Positions 35,809 to 38,159 of a stretch of DNA of 38,159 nucleotides are shown in pieces. The stretch is from Chlamydiia bacterium (lineage in GTDB: Bacteria > Chlamydiota > Chlamydiia > Chlamydiales > Parachlamydiaceae). The stretch is taken from the NCBI GenBank assembly GCA_038257035.1, contig JBBSJT010000007.1:1-38159 (forward strand). The letters are read 5' to 3'. Each line of letters starts with the position of its first letter. Position 1 is the stretch's first letter. The position numbers were made by a program, and so were the translations under genes. Below the pieces are notes generated by a model. The model was given only the letters and a program-made list of their open reading frames with translations. It had not been told where the DNA came from and did no database searches.

Positions 35809-38159
35809 ATGAATGCAAATACTACCACAACACTTAAACGCCCTTTTGGCCAAACAAACTTCATTGAGATGGAAGGCAGTCATAAAAAATATAAAATTGA
35901 AGATGAAATTATCTACAAGCTCTTTACTATTGTTATCTTAAATCCATTGGAAGAATCTGATAAAAATATTGTCTGGATGCATATAAATGACTTTAAGGAT
36001 TTTTTTGGAGAATGCGATACAGGGTACATACAAATTGCAAAACATGTTTATCAGGTAGGTGTGCGTAATATCCAACCGGGGGTTATTTGTCTTAGCAATG
36101 CTCAAAAAAGACATGTCAAGCCCCTCACAGCTTTTCTTGAAAATAAAGAAACCTTGTTTTTATCTTCTTCTAATACTAAATTTGAACATGAGGAAATACA
36201 ATCTCTTCACCTGAAGATTGAATTTTCAAATTTTTTACCCAATTCATCATGTTTTGATTATAATCATCTAAAAATGCTTTGTCAGAGAAAAATGATAGGT
36301 TCTTTTGTTAATTTAAATCAAAAAATTACGCTCGATTCAGAAAAACCATCTATCACCACTTATGTAAAAACTCTTAGAGTTACAAACGGACATTTTCAAT
36401 CCAATTTTGGAGTTGTAACTTTAAATACGGAAATTATTTTTGATAATATTCATACAGGAAATGTTTCATTTTCAGTCTTGAGCCAAGCAGAAAACGATTT
36501 TGCAAGTTCTATTCGAATTAACGTTAATTTAAATGAAAAATATAAAAATAGCCTTAGATTTTTGATGACTGATTTTTTAGATGAGTCCTATCTTGTAGAT
36601 TATGATGCATTTTCTGAAATCATTAAAAGTCGATTGAGAGGGAAATCCCTTTTTGTGGGTTATAAATCCAATGTTAAAGTTGAAGACACATCTTTTTACC
36701 TCAATTTAGAATCATCTCTAGGATTTAACAGATTGCAAGCTCCTCAAAATTGTAAGAGAGGAATGTTTTTGTGCGATACAACTGAATTGCAATTTAAATC
36801 CCATCTTGACGAAGTTATATTTGTTAAAGATTCACCTCGTTTTACAAAAAATTGTGAAATAAAAGTCATTGATCTCATTGCTTCGGCAAAAGATGTACTG
36901 ACTTCTAAAAATATTACCCCATGGATAGATGTAGAAGAATTAAGTTTGGCATTACTTAACGGTGGCTTTGTTGCGGTAGGTCAAAAAATTAACTTAGAGT
37001 TAAGTACCGGAACTTTTCTTGTCAAAATTGAAAATGCTGAAAAATATGTTGAAGATCCTTCACCGATACATGGCCCGGATGATTTATTTCGCTCACGCTG
37101 GCAATTAAGTGAGCATACCGCTTTTAGCTACAGTATGAGCTCTAATTTAAATATCAGTTTTATAAAAAATAAAACATTGGCCAATATTTCCACATTGGAA
37201 TTTGAAGTGGATAGGTACGTAAATATATGGCAAGATAACAAAAAAATTGTGTCTGAAGTTTTAGAACTTCATTTGGAAAGAGCTATAAAGGAAGCAATTT
37301 CCAGTAGTCCATTGATTGAAGGCCAAACATTCGAAGTCACGATATTAAATGAGAAGTTTACTTTAAAAGCAAAAAATGTCTCTTTTCAGAATGTAATTGG
37401 AGTAAATAATTTTAACCAATTAGGCAACTTTGATAATAACACATCCTTTCGTTTCAAAGCTTTATCTAGTACGGATGTTTCAATAATCGGTAAAAAAGTG
37501 CCATTAAATACAGAAAAACTTATAGAAAATCTTAAAAGTAAGGGCCTTGGAGGTATTAACAAAGAATTAACAGATTTAATTGAACAAGTTCTTATTTTTC
37601 ACGAAAGCAAAATGGAAAGTTTAACGAAACGATTAGATGCAAACCCTGTTAAGGGCTTGATTTTTCATGGACCTCCGGGGACCGGTAAAACCACATTAGC
37701 ACGTTTTTTTTCAGAGGCTGTAGGTTGTGATCCCAAAAGAACTGAACTTGTAAGCAGTCCTGGAATCCATGCAAAATATGTTGGGGAATCTGAAGAGAAA
37801 ATTAGGAAATTATTTGAACCCGCTAGAAAAGCTCAAGAAAAATGGGGCGTAGATAGCCCTCTATACACAATAATCTTTGATGAATTTGAGTCGATAGCAG
37901 GAGCTAGAAATGAATCATCTAAACGATGGGAGATTTCCGTTGTAGATCAGTTGCTCAATATGATTGACGGCCTTTTAAAACTAAATAATATTCTTGTGAT
38001 CGGTATTACAAATCACATCGATTTATTGGATCCTGCAATCACACGTTCAGAGCGTCTTGGATACCATTTAAAATTTGATATGCCTGATGAGGATGGCATT
38101 TTTGAAATTTTGGAAATCTACACAAGAAAAATACGAGCCGAAAACCTTCTTGCAAAAGA
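35809..38159 (+). CDS. NSF/Sec18-like AAA+ ATPase (3'-truncated by the window edge)
   Basis: Hand-read open frame from ATG 35809 to the end; GLGGINKEL, Walker A GPPGTGKT (37669-37692), pore loop KYVGESEEKIRKLF, Walker B IIFDE, VVDQLLNMIDG, LNNILVIGITN, SRH DPAITRSERL. Confidence 0.85.
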   Translation, partial: MNANTTTTLKRPFGQTNFIEMEGSHKKYKIEDEIIYKLFTIVILNPLEESDKNIVWMHINDFKDFFGECDTGYIQIAKHVYQVGVRNIQPGVICLSNAQKRHVKPLTAFLENKETLFLSSSNTKFEHEEIQSLHLKIEFSNFLPNSSCFDYNHLKMLCQRKMIGSFVNLNQKITLDSEKPSITTYVKTLRVTNGHFQSNFGVVTLNTEIIFDNIHTGNVSFSVLSQAENDFASSIRINVNLNEKYKNSLRFLMTDFLDESYLVDYDAFSEIIKSRLRGKSLFVGYKSNVKVEDTSFYLNLESSLGFNRLQAPQNCKRGMFLCDTTELQFKSHLDEVIFVKDSPRFTKNCEIKVIDLIASAKDVLTSKNITPWIDVEELSLALLNGGFVAVGQKINLELSTGTFLVKIENAEKYVEDPSPIHGPDDLFRSRWQLSEHTAFSYSMSSNLNISFIKNKTLANISTLEFEVDRYVNIWQDNKKIVSEVLELHLERAIKEAISSSPLIEGQTFEVTILNEKFTLKAKNVSFQNVIGVNNFNQLGNFDNNTSFRFKALSSTDVSIIGKKVPLNTEKLIENLKSKGLGGINKELTDLIEQVLIFHESKMESLTKRLDANPVKGLIFHGPPGTGKTTLARFFSEAVGCDPKRTELVSSPGIHAKYVGESEEKIRKLFEPARKAQEKWGVDSPLYTIIFDEFESIAGARNESSKRWEISVVDQLLNMIDGLLKLNNILVIGITNHIDLLDPAITRSERLGYHLKFDMPDEDGIFEILEIYTRKIRAENLLAK

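What the first reader, a model, noticed from the sequence alone, without database searches (positions are those of the whole stretch)
35809..38159. Bacterial NSF/Sec18-like ATPase with four tandem N-subdomain-like repeats
Seen: the AAA module follows NSF D1 closely (GLGGINKEL, KYVGESEEKIRKLF, EKWGVDSPLYTIIFDE, VVDQLLNMIDG, LNNILVIGITN). Upstream, QPGVICLSNAQKRH recalls the NSF N-domain, followed by four similar units with helix-then-GQ-type motifs (GSFVNLNQKI, GKSLFVGYKS, GGFVAVGQKI, SPLIEGQTF), each ending GxxxxxTxxxF-like (GVVTLNTEIIF, GMFLCDTTELQF, WQLSEHTAFSY, GNFDNNTSFRF). The N-terminus has KRP...KKYK. Known: NSF disassembles SNARE complexes in eukaryotes and has one N-domain. Inference: host-derived effector acting on vesicle traffic, with an expanded adaptor region. 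Absent from the ORF track because it has no stop in the window.
Basis: partly seen in the sequence, partly recalled or inferred. Interest (0 to 1): 0.72.

Follow-up and report, generated by a model that had tools for sequence, protein, structure and literature searches.

The report
NSF-like ATPase with repeated N-subdomains
An amoeba-type chlamydia carries a gene, shared with some giant viruses of amoebae, for a protein-unfolding motor related to the eukaryotic vesicle-fusion ATPase NSF but rebuilt with four copies of one N-terminal subdomain, a single motor ring and a tail of the kind that docks onto proteasomes, so it probably works inside the host cell.

Summary
An open frame starts at 35809 and runs off the contig end (783 aa). 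About 55 aa fall in an assembly gap, and the last 28 aa lie on another contig. Close relatives are 867-878 aa.

Its AAA module is sister to eukaryotic NSF D1 (support 100/99.8) and separate from Cdc48. Residues 34-225 form an NSF/Sec18-type N domain (Z 15.8), followed by three more copies of its second subdomain (pairwise HH E 1e-9 to 5e-16).

- There is no D2 ring.
- The recalled alpha-SNAP contact residues are not conserved across the family.
- 67 of 87 family members end in hydrophobic-Tyr/Phe/Trp-X (HbYX-like).
- 37 of 87 start with a bipartite NLS-like motif.
- The genome has no proteasome or HslV gene.

The family has at least 87 sequence clusters. It is patchy in chlamydiae (24 of 400 genomes) and occurs full-length in giant-virus contigs.

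My best reading is a host-directed single-ring unfoldase whose tail docks on a host partner, most likely the 20S proteasome. That docking step is inferred, not shown. I class it as a new variant of a known kind, apparently uncharacterised.

The parts
35710..35808 (.). 99-bp AT-rich intergenic spacer between the divergent phosphoribosyltransferase gene and the ATPase gene. Presumed promoter region; not analysed further.
35809..38159 (+). Open frame of the NSF-D1-like ATPase, residues 1-783, cut by the contig end. Relatives are 867-878 aa.
35809..35907 (+). Disordered N-terminus (residues 1-33) holding the bipartite NLS-like motif KR-x14-KKYK (residues 10-29).
   Evidence: pLDDT below 50; motif found in 37 of 87 family members
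35908..36183 (+). N-subdomain A (residues 34-125). Aligns with the first subdomain of the NSF/Sec18/p97 N domain.
36184..36462 (+). Unit 1 (residues 126-218). Together with subdomain A it forms a complete NSF-type N domain.
36463..36822 (+). Unit 2 (residues 219-338), an extra copy of N-subdomain B.
36823..37164 (+). Unit 3 (residues 339-452), an extra copy of N-subdomain B.
37165..37494 (+). Unit 4 (residues 453-562). This copy is collinear with NSF subdomain B plus linker plus D1. It has a sub-threshold Pfam CDC48_2 match at 490-533.
37657..38079 (+). AAA ATPase core (Pfam PF00004, residues 617-757).
37669..37692 (+). Walker A motif GPPGTGKT (residues 621-628).
   Evidence: invariant columns
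37774..37794 (+). Pore-loop-1 segment KYVGESE (residues 656-662), matching the NSF D1 type with its aromatic residue.
37879..37884 (+). Walker B Asp-Glu (D691, E692).
38044..38055 (+). Arginine-finger segment R746..R749.

Best explanation
The gene encodes one member of an uncharacterised protein family of about 870 aa. Its layout is:
- a disordered N-terminus with a bipartite NLS-like motif;
- a complete NSF-type N domain (subdomain A plus subdomain B);
- three further copies of subdomain B;
- one NSF-D1-type AAA module with intact Walker A/B, aromatic pore loop and arginine fingers;
- no second ring;
- a flexible tail of about 9 residues ending in hydrophobic-Tyr-X (FGMYG in this genome).

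Shown here: the architecture, the kinship to NSF D1, and the presence of the family in environmental chlamydiae and in giant viruses of amoebae.

Inferred: the protein acts in the eukaryotic host cell, delivered by type III secretion in chlamydiae and expressed directly by the viruses. There it would work as a ring-shaped, substrate-threading unfoldase. The repeated N-subdomains would recruit substrates or adaptors. The C-terminal tail would dock the ring on a host partner. The most likely partner is the alpha-ring pockets of the host 20S proteasome, making it a parasite-encoded proteasome cap, possibly working in the nucleus.

Rough odds: architecture and kinship about 0.95; host-directed role about 0.6; docking on 20S about 0.25-0.3.
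For: Architecture and kinship:
- Searches give the domain layout and the NSF match.
- The tree places family plus NSF D1 at 100/99.8 support, apart from Cdc48 D1/D2, FtsH, RIX7, AFG2, ATAD2 and Mpa-type ATPases.
- Family monophyly has 98/89 support.
- The layout NA-U1-U2-U3-U4 is kept in 68 of 88 members, and 10 of 88 have seven units.

Host-directed role:
- Full-length members with the same N- and C-termini lie on two giant-virus contigs.
- A Moumouvirus protein matches the whole N-region, E 2e-31 over 585 columns.
- The distribution in chlamydiae is patchy: 24 of 400 genomes have N-units plus AAA.
- No gene neighbour is conserved.
- An FHIPEP type-III export gate is present in the genome.
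- The NLS-like N-terminus occurs in 37 of 87 members versus 5 of 164 non-member AAA proteins.

Tail:
- Hb-[YFW]-X ends 67 of 87 members versus 9 of 164 non-members, and 17 of 26 chlamydial genome-derived copies.
- The tail is a flexible coil after the last lid helix.
- No proteasome or HslV family gene was found in this 96%-complete genome, while the control search hit 10 of 14 reference genomes.
- Established knowledge: HbYX tails insert into 20S alpha pockets. The definition comes from a discussion passage of bioRxiv 10.1101/2025.05.27.656411. Their use by PAN, Rpt, archaeal Cdc48 and Mpa is recalled.
Against: - No secretion signal, localisation or binding was tested or can be tested here.
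- NSF D1 alone is not known to form stable hexamers (recalled), and this protein lacks a D2 ring.
- 4 of 26 chlamydial genome-derived copies lack any aromatic tail, and 5 more have off-register variants.
- The NLS pattern is a permissive regular expression of my own and is absent in 50 of 87 members.
- A C-terminal Hb-Tyr-X also serves other roles. The p97 tail binding PUB/PUL domains is one (recalled).
- The range of the family outside chlamydiae and giant viruses is untested, because the genome-wide scan was swamped by generic AAA hits.
Confidence: 0.5

Rival explanations
1. NSF mimic. A secreted ATPase binds host alpha-SNAP/SNARE complexes through its NSF-like N domain and disassembles or traps them, altering vesicle traffic to the inclusion.
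For: The N domain and D1 are homologous to NSF. The aromatic pore loop is kept. In the window's own subclade a Lys-Arg pair aligns with NSF R67/K68 (the role of those residues is recalled). The authors of the Bodo saltans virus paper infer that its NSF homologues and SNAP/SNARE genes were acquired from the host (PMC5871332, passages read).
Against: There is no D2 ring. The R67/K68-equivalent is not conserved in other family members, and the K104/K105-equivalent is not basic. NSF has neither the HbYX-type tail nor the NLS-like N-terminus. The three extra subdomain-B copies have no counterpart in NSF.
Confidence: 0.15
2. p97-tail mimic. The C-terminal ...MYG/-MYx tail binds host PUB- or PUL-domain cofactors such as PNGase and PLAA/Ufd3-type proteins, as the ...LYG tail of p97 does. 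This would divert ubiquitin-pathway cofactors or recruit them to a parasite-controlled segregase.
For: The conserved Hb-Tyr-X tail sits on a flexible end. The window's protein ends in YG. The N domain is of the Cdc48/NSF type, with p97 N scoring Z 14.5, within 1.3 units of NSF's 15.8. PUB/PUL binding of the p97 tail is recalled knowledge, not tested here.
Against: The residue after Tyr varies freely across the family (G, S, T, L, I, M, N, Q, V). The acidic run that precedes the p97 tail (recalled) is not seen. No test was made.
Confidence: 0.12
3. Bacterial-internal function. An accessory cytoplasmic unfoldase or disaggregase of the chlamydial cell, for example acting during developmental transitions. 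The tail would contact a bacterial protease or serve in ring assembly.
For: No secretion signal has been shown. Bacteria have many AAA unfoldases, and the genome has 19 AAA matches. Some chlamydiae also carry Cdc48-like two-ring proteins.
Against: The same full-length architecture is encoded by giant viruses, which have no bacterial cytoplasm. No proteasome or HslV gene is present as a tail partner. The family is found in only 24 of 400 genomes of the phylum. The NLS-like motif would have no use in a bacterium.
Confidence: 0.15
4. Assembly artefact or contaminating eukaryotic or viral DNA binned into the chlamydial genome.
For: The gene lies at a contig end. Its GC (32.6%) is below the window mean of 36.5%.
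Against: The same contig carries 35 kb of bacterial housekeeping genes: XerC-type recombinase, aconitase, LysRS, PriA, MutS, MiaB, RNase II. Its LysRS is 71-74% identical to proteins named Chlamydiales, Parachlamydiaceae and Neochlamydia. Intact orthologues lie within long contigs or near-complete chromosomes of 23 other chlamydial genomes. The neighbouring 1046-aa gene has equally low GC.
Confidence: 0.01

Closest known systems
NSF / Sec18 (vesicle-fusing ATPase, eukaryotes)
   Same: It has the two-subdomain N domain: model residues 34-225 on NSF 1-197, Z 15.8, rmsd 3.0 over 174 residues; HH probability 98.9%. The D1 AAA module matches at 35% identity, includes the NSF-type insert, scores 295-315 bits on the family HMM, and is the sister clade at 100/99.8. 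The aromatic pore loop is YVG.
   Different: No D2 ring. Subdomain B is present four times (seven in some members). An HbYX-type tail and an NLS-like N-terminus are present. The recalled alpha-SNAP contact residues are not conserved family-wide.
Cdc48 / p97 / VAT (archaeal, bacterial, eukaryotic)
   Same: Same N-domain fold (p97 N Z 14.5, MSMEG_0858 Z 14.7, within 1.3 Z units of NSF's 15.8). Same classical AAA clade. The hydrophobic-Tyr-X C-terminus recalls archaeal Cdc48 and p97.
   Different: One ring instead of two. The AAA domain falls outside the Cdc48 D1 (99/97) and D2 groups. The family HMM scores Cdc48 D1 at 200-220 bits against 295-315 for NSF D1.
Proteasomal ATPases PAN / Rpt1-6 / Mpa (ARC)
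   Same: A single AAA ring followed by a short tail ending in Hb-Tyr-X. The mycobacterial GQYL motif (recalled) resembles the frequent GMYx ending here. JGI's automatic name for two family members is '26S proteasome regulatory subunit'.
   Different: The N-terminus is of the Cdc48/NSF type, not coiled coil plus OB. NCBIfam PAN and Mpa models match only the AAA part, far below their cut-offs. The Mpa-type rows branch elsewhere in the tree. No proteasome gene is in the genome.
Giant-virus 'ATPase family protein' (UniProt M1PXF0, Moumouvirus goulette) and the ORFs on IMG/VR contigs UViG_2597490056_000001 and UViG_2595698922_000001
   Same: Same family. The full N-region aligns (E 2e-31, 585 columns), with the same AAA module, the same KR..KKRK-type N-terminus and -IYM / -MYM tails. 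The viral clade nests among chlamydial members.
   Different: Only 22-37% identical to the window protein's relatives. Encoded by viruses. Annotated only generically. I found no functional study.
NSF homologues of Bodo saltans virus and other klosneuviruses (PMC5871332, passages read)
   Same: Parasite-encoded NSF relatives that the authors infer were acquired from the host.
   Different: They are described together with viral SNAP/SNARE genes and proposed for membrane fusion. The Tupanvirus and Klosneuvirus entries in BFVD match only about 190 columns, a single N domain, of this model.

Membership tests
NSF/Sec18 (vesicle-fusing ATPase) | N domain made of a double-psi barrel subdomain plus an alpha/beta subdomain | tested here: met
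   Model residues 34-225 align on NSF 1-197 with Z 15.8. HH probability 98.9%, E 4e-17.
NSF/Sec18 (vesicle-fusing ATPase) | D1 AAA module of the NSF type | tested here: met
   35% identity, E 2e-56. HMM scores sit in the NSF range. The clade with NSF D1 has 100/99.8 support.
NSF/Sec18 (vesicle-fusing ATPase) | Second AAA ring (D2) that holds the hexamer together | tested here: not met
   Relatives at 88% and 78% identity end 84-95 residues after the window's last residue, with one AAA plus lid. The gene's own last 28 aa and stop lie on contig C132.
NSF/Sec18 (vesicle-fusing ATPase) | Basic N-domain residues that contact alpha-SNAP (R67, K68, K104, K105; recalled) | tested here: inconclusive
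   A K-R pair aligns with R67/K68 in the window's subclade only. The K104/K105-equivalent is not basic. The role of these residues is recalled, not checked in a paper.
NSF/Sec18 (vesicle-fusing ATPase) | SNARE-complex disassembly activity | not testable with these tools
   Needs biochemistry.
Classical AAA ATPases (Pfam PF00004) | Walker A, Walker B, sensor-1 Asn, arginine fingers, pore loop | tested here: met
   PF00004 E 6.5e-28. Invariant residues are G621-T628, D691, E692, N735, R746, R749 and V658-E662.
Cdc48/p97/VAT | Two tandem AAA rings, with D1 grouping with Cdc48 D1 | tested here: not met
   One AAA module. Cdc48 D1 forms its own group at 99/97, apart from the family. The NCBIfam CDC48 model scores 118 bits against a cut-off of 803.
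Proteasomal ATPases (PAN/Rpt/Mpa) | Single AAA ring with a C-terminal Hb-Tyr-X tail | tested here: met
   FGMYG at the gene's own end. 67 of 87 members carry the motif. The tail is a coil.
Proteasomal ATPases (PAN/Rpt/Mpa) | N-terminal coiled coil plus OB ring; AAA domain of the PAN/ARC clade | tested here: not met
   The N-region is of the NSF/Cdc48 type. PAN and Mpa NCBIfam models score 105 bits against cut-offs of 500-505. Mpa-type rows branch elsewhere.
Proteasomal ATPases (PAN/Rpt/Mpa) | Physical docking on a 20S core particle | not testable with these tools
   No 20S or HslV gene in the genome. A host partner would have to be tested at the bench.
Type III secreted chlamydial effector | Translocation into the host by the type III system | not testable with these tools
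   Only the presence of an FHIPEP export-gate gene in the genome was checked. No signal predictor was available.

The most novel reading that the evidence does not exclude
Intracellular parasites of protists, both environmental chlamydiae and mimivirus-like giant viruses, share a parasite-encoded alternative proteasome cap. It would be an NSF-D1-derived single-ring unfoldase that enters the host nucleus through its bipartite NLS. It would plug its HbYX tail into the host 20S core and feed chosen host proteins into degradation without ubiquitin, selecting them with its array of 4-7 N-subdomains.
Probability: 0.2. Interest if true: 0.9.

Novelty: new variant of a known kind. Interest (0 to 1): 0.72.

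Why it matters
NSF is regarded as a eukaryotic signature protein. A sister family of its D1 motor, rebuilt into a one-ring machine and shared between chlamydiae and giant viruses that infect the same hosts, bears on three things:
- how parasites of protists exchange and repurpose host-type machinery;
- how the NSF/Cdc48 N domain can be expanded by subdomain duplication;
- whether pathogens can bring their own regulatory cap to the host proteasome.

The last idea is directly testable with tail peptides and purified 20S. All members seen are annotated only generically, so this would give a name and a testable function to at least 87 sequence clusters.

Tried and rejected
- Complex prediction: two Thermoplasma proteasome alpha subunits as an archaeal stand-in, plus residues 800-867 of the family alignment. 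Verdict 'no answer' (score 0.21, mark 0.32). This is neither for nor against binding. The job was accepted after the queue was full.
- Scan of GTDB genome contigs with alignment A1. It was saturated by generic AAA patterns. All 78 loci kept were AAA-only matches (query residues about 476-783, at most 41% identity), mostly archaeal Cdc48-type. The family's range outside chlamydiae was therefore not tested.
- First viral scan with A3. Only the top locus, L138, proved to be a family member. Other viral members may have been missed.
- Single-sequence search of the phylum. It gave 10 of 401 genomes, but the G034 hit is an RHS/YD-repeat protein, and the G179 and G192 hits at those places were short fragments with stops. 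The profile search superseded it.
- In one search, the hits in G075 and G265 are Cdc48-like two-ring proteins. G227 is an AAA-only fragment with stops, and G313 matches only the AAA part. I did not count these four as family.
- Pfam and NCBIfam do not recognise the N-region. CDC48_2 reaches only 20.9 bits against a cut-off of 22.4.
- ESM Atlas gave only leads at 0.87 to CDC48_2, CDC48_N and PEX-1N clusters.
- The listing of cluster members returned no organism names.
- No conserved neighbouring gene was found in 30 loci, though flanks were only 1.5 kb.
- Literature searches found no paper on such a family. These cover only the held open-access library.
- Earlier-findings look-ups by sequence and by words found nothing.
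Full report
**What is there.** An ATG-initiated frame opens at 35809 on the + strand and has no stop before the window ends, giving 783 residues. The window is an entire contig (C7) of a 2.37-Mb, 210-contig, 96%-complete assembly. The rest of the contig carries ordinary bacterial genes: XerC-type recombinase, aconitase, LysRS, PriA, MutS, MiaB and RNase II. Its LysRS is 71-74% identical to proteins that NCBI names Chlamydiales bacterium, Parachlamydiaceae bacterium and Neochlamydia. 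That agrees with earlier notes of this scan calling the genome an amoeba-type chlamydia.

The closest relatives of the protein are 867 aa (88% identity) and 878 aa (78%), each with one AAA module plus lid. The gene's own last 28 codons and stop, ending ...PPFGMYG, lie at the end of contig C132. About 55 residues fall in the assembly gap.

**The AAA module.** Pfam finds only PF00004, at residues 617-757. Against PDB sequences, Cdc48/VAT entries top the list only because two of their rings each match. Per single stretch, NSF D1 is best: 157 bits, query 538-782 on NSF 177-424, versus 105 bits for VAT D1. P0002 aligns with Trichoplax NSF residues 127-486 at 35% identity (E 2e-56). This span covers NSF's second N-subdomain, the linker and all of D1, including the insert after the IRKLF motif.

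An HMM of the family's AAA module gave these scores:

| Group | Bits |
|---|---|
| Family members | 260-397 |
| NSF D1 | 295-315 (237 for one partial NSF D1, P0265) |
| Cdc48 D1 | 200-220 |
| Cdc48 D2 | 190-221 |
| NSF D2 | 23-33 |

In a 104-domain quick tree, family plus NSF D1 form a clade (SH-aLRT 99) apart from Cdc48 D1. In a 69-domain IQ-TREE run (LG+G4) that clade has 100/99.8 support, NSF D1 is monophyletic (100/98), and the family is monophyletic (98/89).

Two caveats apply. No mixture model was used. NSF sampling was 7 metazoan plus 3 unnamed sequences, and no PEX1/6, Rpt, katanin or Vps4 were included. Walker A, Walker B, sensor-1, both arginine fingers and the aromatic pore loop (KYVGESE) are intact.

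**The N-terminal region.** Profile-profile comparison of the four segments 126-218, 219-338, 339-452 and 453-562 was done on sub-alignments of a 47-row family alignment. All six pairs score at probability 96-99%, E 1.6e-9 to 4.5e-16, over 88-103 columns. The segment 30-125 is unrelated to them.

AlphaFold2 on residues 1-575 gives pLDDT 80.4 and pTM 0.67, with 1-31 disordered and the same strand-helix-strand pattern repeated four times. Foldseek's best PDB matches are Sec18 and NSF N domains (E 8e-10; TM 0.66-0.71 on the isolated domains). VIA-align places model residues 34-225 on NSF 1-197 (Z 15.8, rmsd 3.0, 174 residues). Sec18, MSMEG_0858 and p97 N score within 1.3 Z units of that, so the fold does not separate NSF from Cdc48.

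At sequence level, subdomain A plus unit 1 matches the NSF N domain (probability 98.9%, E 4e-17). Unit 4 matches NSF's second subdomain (95.3%, E 2e-8). The layout is therefore: NSF-type subdomain A, subdomain B (unit 1), three more B copies, then D1.

Each unit position is individually conserved. 68 of 88 members read NA-U1-U2-U3-U4, and 10 of 88 read NA-U1-U2-U3-U4-U2-U3-U4. The repeats are old, and the U2-U3-U4 block behaves as a module. Some longer forms add a second AAA domain that branches inside the family, not with NSF D2.

**The family and where it lives.** A profile search of 1.84 billion representative proteins returned many full-length matches. 87 of the 254 proteins then held match the unit-region HMM at E <= 1e-5. 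Three NSFs also match, weakly.

Searching 400 genomes of the phylum with the profile gave 28 genomes at E <= 1e-60. Of these, 24 have N-units plus AAA. The other four are Cdc48-like (G075, G265), a fragment with stops (G227) or AAA-only (G313). The distribution by family code is patchy: 6/45, 4/6, 4/5 and 3/5, but 2/69, 2/90 and 0/35. Some genomes hold two copies. Only two candidates per genome were scored, so these counts are floors. No neighbouring gene is conserved.

A viral-contig scan found a full-length member (811 aa, N-terminus KR..KKRK, C-terminus -HIYM) on a 1.26-Mb IMG/VR contig. A 57%-identical copy lies on a 1.02-Mb contig. In BFVD, the N-region model matches 'ATPase family protein [Moumouvirus goulette]' over 585 columns (E 2e-31). 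Other giant-virus NSF/AAA entries match only about 190 columns.

Of the 87 representatives, 8 are nearest to the viral anchors and 79 to chlamydial anchors. Many of those are only about 30% identical to their anchor, so their origin is open. In a quick tree the viral clade (99) nests among chlamydial sequences. The range beyond these two groups is untested.

- *The C-terminus.* 67 of 87 members end in hydrophobic-[Tyr/Phe/Trp]-X (53 with Tyr), against 9 of 164 non-member AAA proteins in the same set. Among 26 chlamydial genome-derived copies, 17 have the motif, 5 have off-register variants and 4 lack it. In the full-length model of P0002 (pLDDT 81.6), the last helix ends at 858 and residues 859-867 are coil. 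This is the form of an HbYX motif. Such tails insert into 20S alpha-ring pockets (definition from a passage of bioRxiv 10.1101/2025.05.27.656411; use by PAN, Rpt, archaeal Cdc48 and Mpa is recalled).
- *No self-encoded partner.* The genome has no match to the proteasome/HslV family, while the control search hit 10 of 14 reference genomes.
- *The N-terminus.* It is disordered, and in 37 of 87 members it fits a bipartite K/R pattern, against 5 of 164 non-members. The pattern is my own and is permissive.
- *Secretion machinery.* The genome has an FHIPEP type-III export-gate gene.

**Interpretation.** The kinship and architecture are shown. That the protein works in the host cell is inferred from four points: it is shared with giant viruses, its distribution is accessory, it has an NLS-like motif, and the genome encodes no partner for the tail.

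That the tail docks on the host 20S proteasome is the most specific reading. It rests only on motif form and analogy. A stand-in complex prediction gave no answer (reported under Tried and rejected).

D2 is absent. The recalled alpha-SNAP contacts are not conserved across the family, since a K-R pair aligns with R67/K68 only in the window's subclade. And the tail and N-terminus are unlike NSF.

Other rivals are a p97-tail mimic that binds PUB/PUL cofactors and a purely bacterial role. Contamination is very unlikely.

**Novelty.** Members exist in databases under generic names: 'ATPase family protein', or JGI's automatic '26S proteasome regulatory subunit'. Six full-text searches found no description of the family. 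The nearest statement in print that I saw is that Bodo saltans virus carries host-derived NSF homologues together with SNAP/SNARE genes (PMC5871332, passages read). I class the finding as a new variant of a known kind.

Noticed in passing
window 31882-35022 (+): A 1046-aa protein with no Pfam match. It has a single hydrophobic stretch of about 35 residues near the N-terminus (residues about 26-60, with His-Pro in the middle). This recalls the bilobed hydrophobic domain of chlamydial inclusion-membrane proteins. It lies just upstream of the ATPase gene and has equally low GC.
   Followed up: partly
window 21817-22695 (-): Strong match to Kdo hydroxylase (PF11004, E 2.5e-107) in a chlamydial genome. 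Not examined further.
   Followed up: no
window 7-870 (+) and 1016-1507 (+): A tyrosine recombinase (XerC/D-like, Phage_integrase E 1e-47) at the contig start, followed by a PD-(D/E)XK nuclease-family gene.
   Followed up: no
proteins P0121, P0122, P0124, P0125, P0128, P0114: Longer family members (1187-1504 aa) carry a second AAA domain. It branches inside the family rather than with NSF D2, so a second ring was re-invented by internal duplication.
   Followed up: partly
protein P0027: This 1194-aa member is nearest to the viral copies. Its precomputed domains include a Hint/homing-endonuclease-associated family (PF05203), suggesting an intein inside the ATPase gene.
   Followed up: no
loci L056 (G265) and L057 (G075): Two chlamydial genomes encode two-ring proteins of about 710-750 aa that group with archaeal/bacterial Cdc48 in the tree, not with the family.
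   Followed up: partly
L016 817-1338 (+), contig C132 next to the gene's 3' end: A 173-aa protein with a signal-peptide-like N-terminus lies downstream, convergent with the ATPase gene's end. No function was assigned.
   Followed up: no
L027 (G034:C4): A very large RHS/YD-repeat protein (at least 1109 aa in the locus). It surfaced as a false hit of the N-region search.
   Followed up: partly
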